Origin: Escherichia coli | Lineage (GTDB): Bacteria; Pseudomonadota; Gammaproteobacteria; Enterobacterales; Enterobacteriaceae | Length of the DNA: 64,000 bases | Assembly (NCBI RefSeq): GCF_017348835.2 | Contig: NZ_CP071375.1 | Direction: 5' to 3' (one strand) | Shown: positions 30,156 to 36,399 of the stretch, piece by piece | Numbering within the stretch: position 1 is the stretch's first letter | Layout of the letters: every line of letters starts with the position of its first letter | Translations under genes and position numbers: made by a program | The notes under the pieces: model-generated | The model's input: only the letters and a program-made list of their open reading frames with translations | The model's database searches: none | Told to the model about the DNA's origin: nothing

Positions 30156-30389
30156 TTATTCTCCGGTGTGCTGTTCTTTATATCTGTCGTGCAATAGATC
30201 TATTTCTTGCAGTTCCATTATTACATGCTCAAGAATCGTTATTAATGCCGTGGCAATTCTTGATTTTTGTTTGTCGCGTTCATTGTCGCCAAGTGTTTCA
30301 AGCCATATGCGCAATATTTCCAGCATGTTTTCACTGTGAGAAAGTGCAAGAAATGCGCGGTCTATTGTTTCGAGGTAAATATCACGCAT
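30156..30389 (-). CDS. Hypothetical protein (77 aa)
   Basis: ORF in the operon upstream of rep. Confidence 0.4.
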   Translation of the reverse strand: MRDIYLETIDRAFLALSHSENMLEILRIWLETLGDNERDKQKSRIATALITILEHVIMELQEIDLLHDRYKEQHTGE

Positions 30390-30390
30390 A

Positions 30391-30612
30391 TTAATCCCCG
30401 TCCGTTGTTTTTCTTAAAATAACTTCTGTCACGAAATCAGCATAGTTAGCGGCAATATCAAGAATATTTAGCCCTGTATCTCTGTGCTCATCAGTGCAAA
30501 GAAAGAAAAAAGCCACCCGCATAATTTCAGATATTGACGAAAGCGCATCAGCCGCATCATCAGGAACGCCGGAAAATTCTTGTTTCAGGGAATTAAAACG
30601 ATCATCACGCAT
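30391..30612 (-). CDS. Hypothetical protein (~73 aa; start uncertain)
   Basis: ORF in the operon; start chosen just downstream of the preceding stop. Confidence 0.3.
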   Translation of the reverse strand: MRDDRFNSLKQEFSGVPDDAADALSSISEIMRVAFFFLCTDEHRDTGLNILDIAANYADFVTEVILRKTTDGD

Positions 30613-30821
30613 AACCCCCCCCATTTTCATAATCTGCAACAAGAATATTTTTAGCGTCATTCAGCGACCGCGTGGCGGTGTATCGGATACATTCCAGGGC
30701 GAACAATGTGTATTCCTCCCGTTCTTCCTTTTGTGCAAGCTCTGCCGTGCATTCAATATCAATAAGCGCGTGCATCAGCGTAGTGAGTGCGGCTGCGTCC
30801 GGACGGATGTTATTGCACATG
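30605..30821 (-). CDS. Hypothetical protein (~72 aa)
   Basis: ORF in the operon; start at internal Met MCNNIRPD. Confidence 0.3.
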
Positions 30822-31043
30822 GTGTACCCCTCCGCATTTTTTTTCGTTAGAAATAAGCGTTCTTCTTTCCTGTTCATCGCTCAGGAATACGCAGACCTCA
30901 CCGCTAAGGCGTTTAAGTAAGCCGATGATTGCCCCTGATTCGCTGTCGGTCATCATGCCAGGGTAATCCTCTGCCAGTGCGCAAATAACTTCGATTTGGT
31001 GGGCGCGTTCTGCTGCCTGTTGTAGTGTGATTTCCTGGCTCAT
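30810..31043 (-). CDS. Hypothetical protein (~77 aa)
   Basis: ORF in the operon; start MSQEITLQQ, ATGA-coupled to the upstream gene. Confidence 0.35.
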   Translation of the reverse strand: MSQEITLQQAAERAHQIEVICALAEDYPGMMTDSESGAIIGLLKRLSGEVCVFLSDEQERRTLISNEKKCGGVHHVQ

Positions 31044-31234
31044 AAGCCTACCCCCTGGCGAATACGGGCGGCGAATACAGCAACACAACCTGACGGGCAA
31101 CGGTTACGCGCTTCGCGTTCCGTCCAGGCGGTTACGTGGATTATTTGAGATTCTCCGGCACTCAGTGCCAGAAAACGCCACACAAAGGCCGTTTGTGTGT
31201 GTACAAGGTGTGGTATATGATTTACAGCAACCAT
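31040..31234 (-). CDS. Hypothetical protein (~64 aa), first gene of the minus-strand early operon
   Basis: Start MVAVNHIPHLV; lies next to the divergent promoter region. Confidence 0.3.
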   Translation of the reverse strand: MVAVNHIPHLVHTQTAFVWRFLALSAGESQIIHVTAWTEREARNRCPSGCVAVFAARIRQGVGL

Positions 31235-31326
31235 AACGGCTCCTAGTTTACGTTGTTGGTTAGAAGCCCTGCGAGTGGTAACGACACTTGCGGGGCTTTG
31301 TCTTTTCATCGATTACCTTGATAAAG

Positions 31327-31408
31327 GTGTCAGCCACTATATTAGTAACGGGTGTCAGCCACGTCAATAGTGTTTTTCCGTTTTCTTGTGTGTATACTGT
31401 CAGCCACC
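31327..31408. promoter_or_regulatory. Divergent promoter/operator region with three direct repeats of GTGTCAGCCAC
   Basis: Repeats at 31327..31337, 31352..31362 and 31398..31407, the last next to the RBS of the plus-strand gene. Confidence 0.55.
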
Positions 31409-31428
31409 TAATAACGAGGAAATCAGAT

Positions 31429-31608
31429 ATGGCAACAAAAGCAGTTAATGCAAAATCCAAAAAGCTTGAGGCTCGAGTACCACACGCAATAGCTGATGCT
31501 GTAGAAAATTTAAAGGAAGATGGCGAAAGTACAGGGCAATTTATCGTTTCGGCACTTGAAGGCGAGATCAAACGCCGCCAGCGCCGCAAGGCCAAAGAAT
31601 CAGAATAA
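31429..31608 (+). CDS. Small basic protein (59 aa), divergently transcribed; candidate island regulator
   Basis: ORF MATKAVNAKSKKLEARVPHAIADAVENLKEDGESTGQFIVSALEGEIKRRQRRKAKESE with a GAGGA-like RBS. Confidence 0.45.
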   Translation: MATKAVNAKSKKLEARVPHAIADAVENLKEDGESTGQFIVSALEGEIKRRQRRKAKESE

Positions 31609-31650
31609 TCACTATCAGCGCCGTGGTGTGAGGTATTACGGCGCATTGCT

Positions 31651-31839
31651 ATGCAGGACAACACAATGACCGATAAAGAATTGACCAAAACATTATCACC
31701 GGCACGGAAAAGACGGCGCAGAAAGATAGAACATGAATCAGAAAGATTCGCGCCATGTGCTTTTGCCCTTGAGCAATTCCTTAAAGAGTACAGGGAAAAG
31801 CGCTCATTGCAGGTATGGCAACGAACTGAACCAGACTGA
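31651..31839 (+). CDS. Hypothetical small basic protein (start uncertain)
   Basis: Second plus-strand ORF before the plus-strand terminator. Confidence 0.3.
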   Translation: MQDNTMTDKELTKTLSPARKRRRRKIEHESERFAPCAFALEQFLKEYREKRSLQVWQRTEPD

Positions 31840-31934
31840 TTGCATTGCCCACCAGCCTGATAGCGGCTATCATCCCCGTGCTTATGTTTGGGATCACACA
31901 CACAAACGGCGCAGCGGGTTATCTGTTCAGAAAG

Positions 31935-31962
31935 GCGGCTCCATTTCGGGGCCGCTTTTTTT
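31935..31962 (+). terminator. Intrinsic terminator of the plus-strand small-gene transcript (GCGGCTCC ... GGGGCCGC followed by TTTTTTT)
   Basis: 8-bp stem with one G-U pair, followed by a U-run. Confidence 0.6.
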
Positions 31963-32108
31963 ATGCCTGAAAAACCCCAATTTTGTGGTTTTCCAGTCTC
32001 ACCAGGGCGAACGAATCCCCGCCCACGTTCTGGCGTATATTCAATCTTCATGGTTATAGCTCTGTGTTCAGATGATTGATGTGTGGCGGCTGTGTGCCGC
32101 CAGCGTGA

Positions 32109-32297
32109 TTAATGAACTGCCTTGCAGCTATCCTTCCAGGCCAGAACCTCGGATAAAGACCAGCCAACGGAACGACCGCCAAGTTTACGACGTGATGGGA
32201 ATTGTCCGGCCTTTTCCAGGCGGTAGCGGCATGAGCGGCTAAGGCCTGTTAGCTTTTCGCATTCTTTTTCACGTATAAACCGATCAGTGCTTAACAC
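32109..32297 (-). CDS. alpA: AlpA-family transcriptional regulator / excisionase-like protein
   Basis: 62 aa, MLSTDRFIREKECEKLTGLSRSCRYRLEKAGQFPSRRKLGGRSVGWSLSEVLAW, a typical AlpA HTH. Confidence 0.8.
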   Translation of the reverse strand: MLSTDRFIREKECEKLTGLSRSCRYRLEKAGQFPSRRKLGGRSVGWSLSEVLAWKDSCKAVH

Positions 32298-32456
32298 TAT
32301 TGCCCCCTTTCGTTTCTTAAAGAGTTATTTCGTGTTCTATTGCGTTGGGATGTGTCTGATTGTGTCAGGATGATTCAGAGTTGGCAAATGTTGAGGTCGT
32401 ATGGTTTACAGAAACAGGAATAATCAGGATAAAATCATTTAAATTCATGTTAATAC

Positions 32457-32490
32457 AAAGGCATAAAATATTGTTTCATGCCTTTTTTCT
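32457..32490 (+). terminator. Plus-strand hairpin with U-run (AAAGGCAT ... ATGCCTTT TTTTCTC) in the alpA-int intergenic region
   Basis: Read directly from the sequence; there is no annotated plus-strand gene upstream. Confidence 0.45.
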
Positions 32491-32671
32491 CGCCATTTAA
32501 AGAGTGATTCGCTAGTGTATAAAAAACCAGTAACACATTAAAAATCAGCCACTTATAAATCCGTACACTTTTTCGCCTCTTGTTCGTAGTTGTTCCGCAT
32601 TGTTGCTCATTGTTGCATGTTGTATCTGTTCGCATATCCAGTATGCGCATACTGAAAAAACACGAAAAAAA

Positions 32672-33901
32672 TTATTTTCTTCTGGCTACTGGTAGCGTGG
32701 TTACGTTTTCATGTGTTCCCGCCAGTATCCCTAACCGCTCCGTCCACATATCCAGCGCATTGCGTTTAGCATCCAGATAACGGGAATGATTATAAACTCG
32801 CTGCATTCCTGGCATCTGATGACCTGTAAGCTGCTCCACGACATGCGGATCAACGCCTAAATCGTTCAGCATGGTTGTAAAGGTGCGCCGGATGTCATGC
32901 AGTGACCAGTGAGGATGATTAAGCCTCCTGTGCGCTAATCTTCCATACTGCGATACGCTGGCCTCCTGTTTCGCTTCCCCCAGCAATAAGCCCGTGTGCC
33001 TGTTCTGCTCCACCAGCTGCGTGACGAACGGCAGGATCGCTTCCGGTATGGGCCGGAATATTGCGACCTTCGTTTTGCTGTGCTCCTTCGGAACGGTCCA
33101 TAGCATTTCCGTAAAATCCCACTCCCCGATCTCCGATAGCCTCAGTTCTACCGTCCTGGCTCCGAAGACAATCAGGAGGCGGATTAACGCGACGTAGTAA
33201 GGGGAAAATATTTTTTTGTCCAGTGCCTGCAATAATTCGCCAAGTTCTTTGTTACTTAAGACACGTTCGCTTATATCCGGTTTTTTCCCAACGTCCGCCA
33301 CGTTCAGATCGTCCAGAACGTTGCTGATTGCATAGCGCCGCCTACGGCAGAACTTAAGCGCCTGTTTGCACGCCTGTAGCACGAATCCGGCAGTAACAGG
33401 CGTTCGCTTTGCCACCTGGTCAAAACAGGCCAGCCAGTGCCGTAGCTCGCATTTATCCAGCGGCATAGCACCAATCTGCTGTATTACGTGATTATTAAGT
33501 CGCCTTTTCAGGGCGATATAATCCACGCGGTTTTCCTTTACGTAATACTCAAGCCAGTAGGTGAGCGCATCGCCAACCGTTACGGGCTTTAACGCTTCCT
33601 GTACGGTGTAATTCATCTCATGACGTGGATTTTTCCCCTCAGCCAGCCATGTGCGACACTGTGCGGCTTTTTCCCTGGCTGCTTTCAGGCTCAGATCAGG
33701 ATAACTTCCCAGCTTAATGCGTTCGGGTCGTGTCTCCCTTCCCGTTCCGGCCCTGTATGTGAAATACCAGGTCAATTTCCCTGATGTTAAATATTTCACG
33801 CTCAGGTTTCCGCCATCACTATAAAACGTGTTTTTCTCCGCTGGCTTACCATGAAGTTTCCTTAGCAAGGTATCGCTCAGTTTGTTCATTGCTCTGCTCA
33901 C
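32672..33901 (-). CDS. int: Tyrosine integrase, P4-like family
   Basis: 409 aa; N-terminal P4-type arm-binding region (GKLTWYFTYRAGTGRETRPERIKLGSYPDLSLKAAREKA) and a C-terminal catalytic domain (HDIRRTF...Y); adjacent to attR. Confidence 0.85.
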   Translation of the reverse strand: MSRAMNKLSDTLLRKLHGKPAEKNTFYSDGGNLSVKYLTSGKLTWYFTYRAGTGRETRPERIKLGSYPDLSLKAAREKAAQCRTWLAEGKNPRHEMNYTVQEALKPVTVGDALTYWLEYYVKENRVDYIALKRRLNNHVIQQIGAMPLDKCELRHWLACFDQVAKRTPVTAGFVLQACKQALKFCRRRRYAISNVLDDLNVADVGKKPDISERVLSNKELGELLQALDKKIFSPYYVALIRLLIVFGARTVELRLSEIGEWDFTEMLWTVPKEHSKTKVAIFRPIPEAILPFVTQLVEQNRHTGLLLGEAKQEASVSQYGRLAHRRLNHPHWSLHDIRRTFTTMLNDLGVDPHVVEQLTGHQMPGMQRVYNHSRYLDAKRNALDMWTERLGILAGTHENVTTLPVARRK

Positions 33902-33926
33902 GTTTTACCCCCTCTTTACGAAAAAG

Positions 33927-33949
33927 TGACTACACCAGTGACTACACCG
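33927..33949. repeat. Putative integrase arm-type site, right copy (TGACTACACCAGTGACTACACCG)
   Basis: Exact 23-bp direct repeat of 22668..22690. Confidence 0.55.
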
Positions 33950-34076
33950 ATCGTTGCACAAAGGGCTACAACGTGAAACAAGCTGGAACAAGGAAAATCA
34001 CAAATCTGTTGATAATCAAAAACATAATGCACAGCCTGAAACATTATGAAACAGCAAAAAACACTAAATGATAAAA

Positions 34077-34085
34077 TGCTGTTAT
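34077..34085. other. attR core, right copy of TGCTGTTAT
   Basis: Island-to-tqsA junction; tqsA sequence resumes in frame. Confidence 0.6.
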
Positions 34086-34983
34086 TCTTAACCCGCTGGT
34101 GCAACACATGGTCCGCTGGCGAGTGCCGCGTGTACTGGCGGTGTCGATTTTGATGACCATCATCGTGATGGCTATGGTGTTGCTGTTAGCTTATCTGGGT
34201 TCCGCGCTCAACGAGTTGACGCGGACGTTACCGCAATATCGCAACTCTATTATGACGCCGCTGCAAGCGCTTGAACCGTTGTTGCAACGCGTAGGGATTG
34301 ACGTCTCAGTTGACCAGCTGGCGCATTATATTGATCCGAACGCGGCGATGACGTTGCTCACCAACTTATTGACGCAGTTATCTAATGCCATGTCATCAAT
34401 ATTTTTATTGCTGCTGACGGTGCTGTTTATGCTGCTCGAAGTGCCACAATTGCCCGGAAAATTTCAGCAAATGATGGCGCGTCCGGTTGAAGGGATGGCG
34501 GCGATTCAGCGTGCGATTGACAGTGTGTCTCATTATCTGGTGCTGAAAACAGCCATCAGCATCATCACCGGCCTGGTCGCATGGGCGATGCTCGCCGCCC
34601 TCGATGTTCGCTTCGCTTTTGTCTGGGGATTGCTGGCCTTTGCGCTTAATTACATCCCTAATATTGGTTCAGTTCTCGCGGCAATCCCCCCTATCGCTCA
34701 GGTACTGGTATTTAATGGCTTCTACGAAGCGTTGCTGGTGCTGGCGGGATATCTGCTGATTAATCTGGTCTTCGGCAATATTCTGGAGCCGCGCATCATG
34801 GGGCGTGGGCTGGGTCTTTCCACATTGGTGGTATTTTTGTCGTTGATTTTTTGGGGATGGTTGTTAGGACCGGTGGGTATGCTGCTTTCCGTGCCGTTGA
34901 CAATTATTGTCAAAATTGCGCTTGAACAAACAGCGGGAGGTCAAAGCATCGCCGTTCTGTTAAGCGATCTCAATAAAGAGTGA
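34085..34983 (+). pseudogene. tqsA: 3' fragment of tqsA (AI-2E family transporter), about 299 codons, separated from its start and promoter
   Basis: Translation [24 protein letters not shown]... continues the 5' fragment at 22457..22591. Confidence 0.85.
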
Positions 34984-35004
34984 CGGCCTCCGCAGAGGCC
35001 GTCA
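34981..35004. terminator. Stem-loop (TGACGGCCTC ... GAGGCCGTCA) between the convergent genes tqsA and pntB
   Basis: 10-bp perfect inverted repeat. Confidence 0.5.
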
Positions 35005-35007
35005 GGG

Positions 35008-36399
<1,392 letters not shown>

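What the first reader, a model, noticed from the sequence alone, without database searches (positions are those of the whole stretch)
32298..32671. alpA-int intergenic region with a plus-strand terminator and a tandem CATTGTTGC repeat
A plus-strand terminator (32457..32490) has no upstream plus-strand CDS, and CATTGTTGC occurs twice in tandem (32598..32616) just downstream of the int stop. This could be a small regulatory RNA or integrase/AlpA control sites.
Basis: seen in the sequence. Interest (0 to 1): 0.3.

Follow-up and report, generated by a model that had tools for sequence, protein, structure and literature searches.

The report
Control region of a phage-satellite switch gene
The spacer between the integrase gene and the alpA switch gene of a phage-parasitic island holds a row of five evenly spaced protein-binding repeats that recur at both island ends, plus a conserved RNA hairpin and the alpA promoter, so it looks like the island's on/off control region rather than a small-RNA gene.

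Summary
Both observed features are real. The window holds an ~11.5-kb PICI-type phage satellite inserted in tqsA. The finding is its int-alpA spacer, orthologous to the alpA promoter region of the model satellite EcCICFT073 (AlpA 59/62 identical), which AlpA and helper phage are reported to activate.

The "CATTGTTGC x2" is the middle of five head-to-tail decamers (core AACAA on the minus strand, exact 10-bp period, 32576-32625). Cores are conserved and spacers vary across about 40 haplotypes, and a diverged subgroup has six copies. The same phased decamers sit beside a doubled ACTACACC motif at both island ends. This matches dual-purpose excisionase/regulator operators (186 Apl, P2 Cox, P4 Vis, KplE1 TorI). 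AlpA is the likeliest binder, but this is untested.

The "plus-strand terminator" is a conserved hairpin (32457-32485). One compensatory change and a 52:2 excess of G.U wobbles point to the minus (int-alpA sense) RNA. It is probably the int terminator that insulates alpA, though the invariant plus-strand T6 leaves bidirectional action open.

No plus-strand promoter exceeds chance and no Rfam family matches. A conserved IHF-consensus site and the alpA promoter (TTGCCA-17-CACAAT) complete the region.

Verdict: a new member of a known kind, of moderate interest.

The parts
32672..33901 (-). int, tyrosine integrase with an N-terminal arm-DNA-binding domain
   Evidence: 409-aa ORF. Pfam hits: Arm-DNA-bind_3 at 1.4e-18 and Phage_integrase at 1.4e-16. 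372/410 (91%) identical to the EcCICFT073 Int.
32639..32654 (.). Perfect 16-bp palindrome CAGTATGCGCATACTG just after int. Present only in the 'group A' islands. Function unknown.
   Evidence: I11. Conserved in nearly all group A haplotypes (single-base variants in a few); replaced by extra decamer sequence in group B.
32576..32625 (-). Array of five head-to-tail decamers (ATACAACATG CAACAATGAG CAACAATGCG GAACAACTAC GAACAAGAGG; core AACAA, exact 10-bp period). Proposed operator for the AlpA excisionase/regulator.
   Evidence: In 40 array haplotypes the register has no indels, the cores are conserved and the spacers vary. There are five copies in group A, six decamer positions in group B and one whole-unit gain in L031. 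The binder is inferred, not shown.
32543..32555 (+). IHF-consensus site AATCAGCCACTTA (WATCARNNNNTTR)
   Evidence: Present at the same position in 55 of 58 distinct spacers, with the specified bases kept and the N4 variable. Binding not tested.
32508..32542 (-). Conserved block TTTAAT-17-TACACT: a weak promoter-like site of uncertain meaning
   Evidence: TACAYT is conserved in the 58 spacers that were aligned. Its distance to the alpA -35 is fixed at 131-132 nt. The PWM score of 7.0 is below the shuffle median of 8.4.
32449..32490 (-). Conserved hairpin (stem 32457-32468 / 32474-32485). On the minus strand it is preceded by A6 and followed by UUUGUAUU. On the plus strand it is followed by T6. 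Proposed int terminator and insulator of alpA, possibly bidirectional.
   Evidence: One pair follows the path A-U to G.U to G-C. There are 52 G.U cells on the minus-strand RNA against 2 on the plus strand. The minus-strand U-tract is degenerate in about 9 of 58 spacers.
32359..32387 (-). alpA core promoter: -35 TTGCCA (32387-32382), 17-nt spacer, -10 CACAAT (32364-32359) preceded by TGn
   Evidence: score 12.3, above the 95th percentile (11.7) of shuffles. TTTGCCA is invariant. Variants with a 10-nt deletion keep TTGCCA-17-AACAAT (read from the sequences). The transcription start site has not been measured.
32109..32308 (-). alpA: Shine-Dalgarno GGGGG at 32303-32307, GTG start at 32297, 62 aa
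   Evidence: Pfam Phage_AlpA at 5e-18. 59/62 identical to EcCICFT073 AlpA. Matches PDB 8C3T, an AlpA-family protein, at 2.6e-6.
33926..33995 (+). int-proximal att arm: doubled GTGACTACACC (33926-33948, 12-bp period; proposed Int arm-type sites) followed by three phased decamers TACAACGTG AAACAAGCTG GAACAAGG (33966-33995)
   Evidence: Conserved in every related island whose arm is available, whatever the integration site.
22611..22735 (+). Distal att arm: IHF-consensus site (22611-22623, minus strand), doubled ACTACACC (22667-22689) and three phased decamers (22706-22735)
   Evidence: The doubled motif and decamers also occur at the left end of Sakai Sp7.
34077..34085 (.). attR core TGCTGTTAT inside tqsA. 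The matching attL core is at 22585-22593.
   Evidence: A 9-bp identity at the two junctions of the split tqsA gene.

Best explanation
The 374-bp spacer is the control region of alpA, the master switch gene of a PICI-type phage satellite integrated in tqsA. Read along the minus strand, in the direction of int and alpA, it contains the following elements. (1) Five head-to-tail AACAA decamers at one helical turn apart. These are the same elements that flank the doubled ACTACACC motif in both att arms. (2) An IHF-consensus site. (3) A conserved RNA hairpin. (4) The alpA promoter and ribosome-binding site. The proposed mechanism has three steps. First, the decamers are operators for AlpA, a small winged-helix protein of the excisionase family. 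AlpA would bind them cooperatively as a filament, as other recombination directionality factors do. At the att arms this would drive excision. In the spacer it would mediate the published positive autoregulation of alpA. Second, the hairpin forms in the sense RNA and terminates int transcripts. This keeps constitutive int transcription from leaking into alpA, whose expression triggers excision and runaway replication. Third, alpA is transcribed from TTGCCA-17-CACAAT once a helper phage signal and AlpA act on the region. What is shown: the anatomy, the conservation and phasing, the recurrence at the att arms, the structure-preserving substitutions in the hairpin, and the orthology to EcCICFT073. 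What is inferred: the identity of the binder, the sign and geometry of regulation, and actual termination.
For: Island identity: int, alpA, Icd-like, DUF4222, primase, PerC and capsid genes lie inside a split tqsA. The Pfam families fit. EcCICFT073 is a member of the same family, with AlpA 59/62 and Int 91% identical and the same spacer architecture. In EcCICFT073 and EcCIMP1 the alpA promoter region is reported to be activated by AlpA and induced by helper phage. AlpA overexpression is reported to cause excision and replication that harms the cell.

Array: there are 5 hits against 0.01 expected, and they lie only in the spacer and the two att arms. The 10-bp register is exact, the cores are conserved and the spacers are variable across 40 haplotypes, and one haplotype has gained a whole unit. 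The att-arm arrays are conserved at four integration sites.

Precedents: RDFs bind head-to-tail repeats one helical turn apart. 186 Apl has 7 operators at pR-pL and 5 at attP, each 6 bp. [quoted passage not shown] KplE1 TorI has three sites with a 5-bp core and 10-bp period next to PintS. HE-PICIs carry a doubled 12-bp-period motif on both sides of attP, with four half-sites proposed to serve the Int tetramer. That assignment leaves the decamers for AlpA.

Hairpin: the minus strand folds at -15.2 kcal/mol, z -4.3. GGCAT/ATGCC changes to GGCGT/ACGCC through a G.U intermediate, and G.U cells number 52 on the minus strand against 2 on the plus strand. A sister island family (Int 76% identical) has an unrelated stem followed by T7 in the sense direction just after int.

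Promoter: this is the only site scoring above the 95th percentile of shuffles, and it is conserved.
Against: No binding, transcript or termination data exist for this sequence.

The array lies 190-240 bp upstream of the predicted -35 with the hairpin in between. That is far for a classical activator. Its distance to the downstream conserved block varies (64, 65, 67, 73 or 76 nt), so there is no strict phase relation.

AlpA and Int could not be separated by covariation, because every island examined carries both motifs.

EcCICFT073 AlpA reportedly does not affect the int promoter, although decamers lie in that arm.

The sense-strand U-tract is only UUUGUAUU and is lost in about 9 of 58 spacers, whereas the plus-strand T6 is invariant. 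At the level of independent substitutions the G.U asymmetry is roughly 6 against 2, which is suggestive rather than significant.
Confidence: 0.6

Rival explanations
1. A short plus-strand RNA, antisense to the int-alpA transcript, starts between alpA and the hairpin (for example from TTTACA-19-TAAAAT, start near 32442) and ends at the hairpin plus T6 (about 32490). This would give a regulatory RNA of about 48 nt.
For: The T6 run directly after the stem is invariant in all 22 hairpin haplotypes, whereas the sense-strand U-tract is not. TTTACA is widely conserved. In three group B' haplotypes the plus-strand fold is slightly more stable than the minus-strand fold.
Against: The candidate promoter has a 19-nt spacer and scores 8.1, at the shuffle median of 8.4. 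Its -10 becomes TAAAAA in group B. The most common haplotypes have one or two A.C mismatches in the plus-strand stem where the minus strand has G.U. The plus strand folds at -9.3 kcal/mol, z -2.4, against -15.2 kcal/mol, z -4.3 for the minus strand. No Rfam family matches. Nothing at these coordinates appears in the held supplements of the O157 Hfq-crosslinking study, although coordinate versions may differ.
Confidence: 0.12
2. The AACAA decamers are bound by the integrase arm-binding domain rather than by AlpA. The spacer array would then let Int regulate int 3' end formation or alpA expression.
For: Int has an Arm-DNA-bind_3 domain. The decamers lie in both att arms, as arm-type sites do. 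Lambda P'1-P'3 arm-type sites are also contiguous direct repeats (my own knowledge).
Against: The doubled, 8-bp invariant ACTACACC motif already gives four half-sites, one per Int protomer. The analogous doubled motif in HE-PICIs was proposed for that role. The decamers have only a 5-bp core, number 11-12 per element and form runs of 5-6 without ACTACACC, which is typical of RDF operators. AlpA alone is reported to activate the orthologous promoter region in trans.
Confidence: 0.17
3. The hairpin is a DNA-level inverted-repeat operator (AAGGCAT-N11-ATGCCTT) for a dimeric host or helper-phage protein, not an RNA structure.
For: It lies about 105-133 bp upstream of the predicted alpA start, in a 185-bp indel-free module. 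The symmetric change GGCAT/ATGCC to GGCGT/ACGCC would also fit co-evolving half-sites. The helper-encoded inducer of alpA is unknown.
Against: Single-arm changes are strongly biased toward those that keep G.U pairing on one strand (52 against 2 cells). A DNA operator does not predict this bias. Loop sequence and length vary freely. The flanking A6 and T-rich runs are typical of terminators.
Confidence: 0.08
4. The features are chance products of an AT-rich spacer and have no function.
For: The spacer is 32-37% GC. Short hairpins and repeats are common in such DNA. The terminator scan did not flag the hairpin.
Against: The phased pattern has 5 hits against 0.01 expected. Conservation is specific to the motif while spacers vary, across 58 distinct spacers and several integration sites. 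The hairpin carries compensatory substitutions.
Confidence: 0.02

Closest known systems
alpA promoter region of the Gram-negative PICIs EcCICFT073, EcCIEDL933 (cf-PICI) and EcCIMP1
   Same: Orthologous locus. EcCICFT073 has AlpA 59/62 identical, Int 91% identical, a 365-bp spacer with six decamers, the same hairpin and the same TTGCCA-17-CACAAT promoter. The O157 Sp7/EcCIEDL933 spacer is 87-88% identical. AlpA autoactivation and helper-phage induction are published for this region.
   Different: The papers I read define the region only as a reporter fragment. I found no AlpA operator, terminator or transcription start mapped in them. The island here sits in tqsA rather than at roxA/phoQ, and it carries the group A form (palindrome plus five decamers).
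Dual-purpose recombination directionality factors: 186 Apl, P2 Cox, P4 Vis
   Same: [quoted passage not shown] Its operators are short direct repeats one helical turn apart. They occur both at att and at a promoter region far from att. Binding needs three or more adjacent sites and bends the DNA.
   Different: Apl and Cox operators lie between face-to-face promoters and repress. Here int and alpA are co-directional, the array is more than 190 bp upstream of the promoter, and the published effect of AlpA is activation. Sequence relatedness of AlpA to Apl or Cox was not tested.
KplE1 TorI sites I3-I5 at attL / PintS
   Same: Three RDF sites with a 5-bp core at a 10-bp period lie next to the integrase promoter in the int-proximal arm, beside Int arm-type sites. 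PGAP names proteins of the TorI type as AlpA family.
   Different: The core is GTTCG, not AACAA. TorI represses intS, and no second array upstream of torI is described in the text I read. TorI was not detected by sequence search with this AlpA.
Doubled attP motif of helper-embedded PICIs (tgTGTATTGCantgTGTATTGCa)
   Same: Two tandem 8-bp cores at a 12-bp period, one pair on each side of the attP core at about 80 and 130 bp. Here ACTACACC x2 lies about 85 and 143 bp from the core.
   Different: The sequence differs. That paper reported its motif as unique to HE-PICIs and did not describe adjacent phased decamers or a spacer array.
Pseudomonas aeruginosa AlpA antiterminator
   Same: It shares the name, and the system has an intrinsic terminator downstream of a regulated promoter.
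   Different: It is a larger protein (contact residues up to position 142) with a 21Q-like fold. It binds a single GGGACG element between -35 and -10. It is not the 62-aa Phage_AlpA protein found here, so the analogy was rejected.

Membership tests
Gram-negative PICI / cf-PICI phage satellite | Integrase gene at one end, transcribed inward, with alpA (Phage_AlpA) immediately downstream in the same direction | tested here: met
Gram-negative PICI / cf-PICI phage satellite | Primase/replicase module downstream, a small genome (about 10-15 kb) and defined att repeats | tested here: met
   A DNA primase family protein is annotated in the 100%-identical hit. The 9-bp TGCTGTTAT cores lie about 11.5 kb apart in the split tqsA.
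Gram-negative PICI / cf-PICI phage satellite | Orthology to an experimentally validated PICI | tested here: met
   EcCICFT073 AlpA is 59/62 identical and Int 91% identical, with the same spacer architecture.
Gram-negative PICI / cf-PICI phage satellite | Induction, packaging and transfer by a helper phage | not testable with these tools
   Known only for relatives.
RDF (excisionase) operator array of the Apl/Cox/Vis/TorI type | Three or more head-to-tail direct repeats spaced one DNA helical turn apart | tested here: met
   Five copies at exactly 10 bp in the spacer and three at each att arm.
RDF (excisionase) operator array of the Apl/Cox/Vis/TorI type | Short, low-information core (5-6 bp) with variable spacers | tested here: met
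   The AACAA/ACAAC core is conserved and the spacers are free across 40 haplotypes.
RDF (excisionase) operator array of the Apl/Cox/Vis/TorI type | The same motif and arrangement at att and at a promoter region of the operon whose first gene encodes the RDF | tested here: met
.
RDF (excisionase) operator array of the Apl/Cox/Vis/TorI type | Cooperative binding and bending by the RDF protein | not testable with these tools
   Needs EMSA or footprinting with AlpA.
Intrinsic (Rho-independent) terminator | Stable stem-loop with G+C pairs at its base | tested here: met
   A 9-12 bp stem with GGC/GCC at the base. Minus strand -12.9 to -15.2 kcal/mol.
Intrinsic (Rho-independent) terminator | U-rich tract immediately 3' of the stem | tested here: inconclusive
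   Plus strand: T6, invariant. Minus strand: UUUGUAUU here, UUUGCAUC in group B, and lost in about 9 of 58 spacers. The consensus scan did not call either strand.
Intrinsic (Rho-independent) terminator | Transcripts actually end there | not testable with these tools
   No transcript data were found.
Known small-RNA or cis-RNA family (Rfam 15, including C4 and IsrK immunity RNAs) | Match to a covariance model | tested here: not met
   No match at E<=1 in 20000-36000 on either strand.
IHF binding site | WATCARNNNNTTR consensus, conserved at specified positions only | tested here: met
   AATCAGCCACTTA at 32543-32555. Present in 55 of 58 spacers at the same position with variable N4. Binding not tested.

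The most novel reading that the evidence does not exclude
The decamer array could be the still-unidentified cis target through which helper phages switch on PICIs. On this reading, the helper prophage's own excisionase (an Xis/TorI-type protein made on induction) cross-binds the AACAA array. Together with IHF it nucleates a filament that opens the alpA promoter, and AlpA then takes over by positive feedback. This would explain why induction depends on a helper phage but not on SOS itself, and why a reporter carrying the EcCIMP1 alpA upstream region still responds to the helper in an alpA mutant. Weak leads: excisionase cross-talk among AlpA-family proteins is documented. The lambda Xis sites (ATATGTTGTGTTTT...TATGTAGTCTGTT; site assignment from my own knowledge) share an ATGTTGT/CTGTT flavour with the window array (CATGTTGTATCTGTT). 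That resemblance is post hoc and is absent from group B.
Probability: 0.08. Interest if true: 0.7.

Novelty: new member of a known kind. Interest (0 to 1): 0.35.

Why it matters
AlpA is the master switch of the Gram-negative PICIs and capsid-forming PICIs, satellites that move virulence and defence genes between enterobacteria. In the papers I could read, it is known only that AlpA activates its own promoter region and that a helper phage turns it on. The DNA sites, the insulation from int and the phage signal are not defined.

This analysis gives concrete, testable candidates that can be mutated directly in the EcCICFT073 and EcCIEDL933 model systems:
- an AlpA operator (RAACAAYGNG, 5-6 copies, also 3 copies at each att arm);
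- Int arm-type sites (ACTACACC x2 on each arm);
- an IHF site;
- an int-alpA insulating hairpin;
- the core promoter.

The analysis also corrects the strand of the apparent terminator. It does not reveal a new kind of mechanism.

Tried and rejected
1. Rfam search of 16 kb around the site at E<=1 found nothing, including the C4 and IsrK immunity RNAs reported in some PICIs.

2. Coding potential. The 66-aa minus-strand ORF across the array is intact in only 7 of 58 spacers, so it was rejected. A 9-codon ORF starting in the hairpin is absent from group B.

3. Lambda CII box. TTGC-N6-TTGC is present in the window (32603-32616), but the TTGC bases are not conserved, so it was rejected.

4. P. aeruginosa AlpA-type antitermination. 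That protein is a different, 21Q-like protein, so the analogy was rejected.

5. Helical phase lock between the array and the downstream block. The distances are 64, 65, 67, 73 and 76 nt, so it was rejected.

6. Second promoter TTTAAT-17-TACACT. It is conserved but scores below the shuffle median, so it stays open and is not claimed.

7. Conserved long leader structure. RNAalifold on 16 leaders gave only an invariant weak pairing of CUCU and CAC with the SD and GTG, without covariation. It also missed the hairpin because of a 1-nt register shift between groups.

8. P2 Ogr/delta-type TGT-N12-ACA dyad near the promoter. By eye from the alignment, the spacing is wrong and it is not conserved.

9. 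Scan of one genome per species with AlpA gave only two distant loci, which I did not examine further. The viral-contig scan gave 69 loci, all of the same Int/AlpA family. AlpA and Int therefore could not be separated as binders by covariation. The more distant cspD/yljB family also keeps both motifs.

10. Transcript evidence. Supplements of two O157 RNA studies held nothing for these coordinates.

Full report
**Setting.** The window is E. coli chromosome. An island of about 11.5 kb splits tqsA, with 9-bp TGCTGTTAT cores at 22585-22593 and 34077-34085. The 100%-identical hit annotates the following genes on the minus strand: a tyrosine integrase, a 62-aa helix-turn-helix protein, Icd-like and DUF4222 proteins, a DNA primase, PerC and a protease/capsid fusion. 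Pfam assigns the integrase an arm-DNA-binding domain plus the catalytic domain, and places the small protein in Phage_AlpA (E 5e-18). This is the organisation of Gram-negative phage-inducible chromosomal islands (PICIs). The finding (32298-32671) is the spacer between the int stop and the alpA start.

**Link to characterised satellites.** The spacer occurs in 730-877 of 5426 complete E. coli genomes, and none of the listed rows has an annotated feature in it. The O157 Sakai copy lies in 'prophage Sp7'. That corresponds to the 15.4-kb EcCIEDL933, the prototype capsid-forming PICI. Fetching CFT073 showed that EcCICFT073, the model Gram-negative PICI, sits at roxA/phoQ and belongs to the same family. 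Its AlpA is 59/62 identical and its Int 91% identical, and its 365-bp spacer has the same architecture. For EcCICFT073 and EcCIMP1 it is published that AlpA activates its own promoter region. Helper prophage induction, and not SOS itself, turns alpA on. AlpA overexpression causes excision and harmful replication. The phage inducer is unknown. The region therefore has a known function, but the papers I could read map no cis elements.

**Checking the observation.** Both features are present at the stated coordinates.
- The hairpin has arms 32457-32468 and 32474-32485, 11/12 complementary on the plus strand, followed by T6.
- CATTGTTGC occurs at 32598-32606 and 32608-32616, one base apart, giving a period of 10.
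- No plus-strand gene lies upstream.

**The repeat is a phased operator array.** The two 9-mers are the centre of five decamers. Read on the minus strand they are ATACAACATG CAACAATGAG CAACAATGCG GAACAACTAC GAACAAGAGG (32625 down to 32576). In eight and then fifteen diverged E. coli copies the AACAA/ACAAC cores are invariant while the spacers vary. Across 58 distinct spacers, including 69 viral-contig loci, there are 40 array haplotypes. None has an indel in the register. Group A has five copies. A diverged group B, which includes EcCICFT073, has six decamer positions that replace a 16-bp palindrome. One locus has gained exactly one unit. The pattern of three AACAA at N5 spacing (up to 1 mismatch) has five hits in the 64-kb window against 0.01 expected. 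The two hits outside the spacer are at 33967-33991 and 22708-22732, that is, in the two att arms.

**The att arms.** Each arm carries the same module. It consists of a doubled (GTG/TTA)ACTACACC at a 12-bp period, 18 bp of spacer, and then three phased decamers, in direct orientation on both sides of the core. The int-proximal module is conserved in every relative examined, whatever the integration site: tqsA, roxA, other sites, and the cspD/yljB site of a sister family with Int 76% and AlpA 62% identical. The distal module is present in Sakai Sp7.

**Who binds the decamers.** The literature gives a precise template.
- RDFs bind head-to-tail repeats one helical turn apart. 186 Apl has seven 6-bp operators between pR and pL and five at attP.
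- KplE1 TorI uses three sites with a 5-bp core and 10-bp period next to the integrase promoter.
- Helper-embedded PICIs carry a different doubled 8-bp motif, with the same 12-bp period and a similar placement on both sides of attP. Its four half-sites were proposed to serve the Int tetramer.

On this basis ACTACACC x2 is best read as the Int arm-type site and the decamers as AlpA operators. I could not separate the two proteins by covariation, because all available islands carry both motifs. I put AlpA at about 0.65, Int at about 0.17 and another protein at the remainder.

**The hairpin belongs to the sense strand.**
- Energy: the minus-strand RNA folds into an uninterrupted 12-bp stem (-15.2 kcal/mol for a 61-nt window, z -4.3). 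The plus strand gives -9.3 kcal/mol, z -2.4, with an A.C mismatch.
- Substitutions: among 22 hairpin haplotypes, one pair shows the path A-U to G.U to G-C. Within the 9-bp core, non-Watson-Crick cells are G.U on the minus-strand RNA 52 times (at five positions) and G.U on the plus strand twice, both in singletons.
- Caveats: counted as independent events this is roughly six against two, so it is suggestive and not conclusive. The plus-strand T6 is invariant. The sense U-tract is UUUGUAUU here, UUUGCAUC in most of group B, and lost in about nine spacers.

I therefore read the element as a sense-strand, possibly bidirectional, terminator or 3'-end hairpin of int. It would insulate alpA from int transcription. 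The need for such insulation follows from the published toxicity of unscheduled AlpA expression. The sister family has an unrelated stem plus T7 in the sense direction right after int.

**Other elements.**
- Promoter: a position-weight scan finds one promoter above the 95th percentile of shuffles, the sense TTGCCA-17-CACAAT with a TGn extension (32387-32359, score 12.3 against 11.7). TTTGCCA is invariant, and variants with a 10-nt deletion regain TTGCCA-17-AACAAT.
- Plus-strand candidate: the best one upstream of the hairpin (TTTACA-19-TAAAAT) scores at the shuffle median.
- IHF: the consensus AATCAGCCACTTA (32543-32555) lies between the array and the hairpin. It is retained at the same position in 55 of 58 spacers with variable N4. 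Another consensus match lies in the distal att arm.
- Spacing: the segment from the TACAYT block just downstream of the IHF site to the -35 is indel-free (131-132 nt).
- Composition: the spacer is 32-37% GC, against about 50% in the flanks.

**Mechanism proposed.** In the quiescent island, int is transcribed from its arm promoter and ends at the hairpin, and alpA is silent. After helper induction an unknown signal raises alpA transcription. AlpA then fills the five or six high-cooperativity operators in its own upstream region, with IHF bending the DNA, and reinforces its own expression. This is the published autoactivation, although the geometry is unresolved because the array is more than 190 bp upstream of the promoter. 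AlpA also fills the three-site arrays in the att arms to direct Int toward excision. Only the anatomy and the conservation are shown here. Binding, the sign of regulation and termination are inferred.

**Rejected ideas.** These were:
- a known RNA family;
- a coding ORF;
- a lambda CII box;
- Pseudomonas AlpA-type antitermination, since that is a different protein;
- a strict helical phase lock;
- a conserved long leader structure.

**Verdict.** The element is a new, well-defined member of the known class of dual-purpose excisionase operators, located in the already known alpA control region of PICIs. Interest is moderate: it is useful to the satellite field and is not a new principle.

Noticed in passing
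window 32626-32641 (minus strand): CTG-N10-CAG (TACTGGATATGCGAACAGAT), the spacing of a LexA box. It overlaps the end of the palindrome and the start of the array. CTG and CAG are kept in all group A variants while the inner bases change, and the element is absent from group B. Published data say alpA induction is not SOS-dependent, so its meaning is unclear.
   Followed up: partly
window 32639-32654: A perfect 16-bp palindrome, CAGTATGCGCATACTG, directly after int. It is conserved in nearly all group A islands (single-base variants in a few) and is replaced by an extra decamer in group B (EcCICFT073 type). It is not followed by a U-tract on either strand. It may be a site for a dimeric protein.
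   Followed up: partly
window 32491-32506 (minus strand); L005, L003, L007: Just upstream of the A6 run, some group A variants have a palindrome: CACGCTTTAAAGCGTG in L005 and CTCTTTAAAGAG in L003. The CTC/GAG versus CGC/GCG difference looks compensatory. The window copy (CACTCTTTAAATGGCG) is degenerate, and group B lacks the element.
   Followed up: no
window 31925-31960 (+): A strong plus-strand terminator, GGCGGCTCCATTTCGGGGCCGC followed by T7. It lies downstream of the plus-strand YlcI/YnfO-like gene and faces alpA. It would already stop most antisense transcription before it reaches the spacer.
   Followed up: no
L016, L081, L082 and L069 (5' leader of alpA, group B): The CCCAA/ACCCA pentamer between the -10 and the ribosome-binding site varies in copy number. 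L016 has about six copies and others have two to four, which changes the leader length by 5-nt steps.
   Followed up: no
L031 1266-1305: One viral-contig copy has six decamers instead of five, through duplication of exactly one CAACAATGAG unit. This shows that the array changes by whole helical turns.
   Followed up: partly
L089 2163-2573 and L090 2166-2573: A sister island family at cspD/yljB (Int 76%, AlpA 62% identical) keeps the doubled ACTACACC and four phased decamers in the int-proximal arm. Its int-alpA spacer, however, has no direct decamer array. Instead it has two hairpins after int (one followed by T7) and an inverted ACAACA-N5-TGTTG.
   Followed up: partly
window 32422-32453: A weak period-11 repeat (TRF score 36; TGAAT/TGATT x3 on the minus strand) between the hairpin and the conserved TTCTGTAAA block. 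Only the first unit is conserved in group B.
   Followed up: no
window 32298-32345 (minus strand): The invariant leader ACTCTTTAAGAAA can pair CUCU with the GGGG of the Shine-Dalgarno sequence, and CAC with the GTG start codon (RNAalifold). This could be a weak translational occlusion, but there is no covariation to test it.
   Followed up: no
window 32409-32419 and 32439-32449 (minus strand): The blocks TTCTGTAAA (about -60 from the predicted start) and ATGAATT(T/A)AAA (about -90) are nearly invariant across groups A and B. They are candidate sites for the unknown helper-phage or host factor that induces alpA.
   Followed up: no
L068 15 and 248: One viral contig has two copies of the doubled ACTACACC motif about 230 bp apart upstream of int. 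This may reflect a tandem or rearranged att arm.
   Followed up: no
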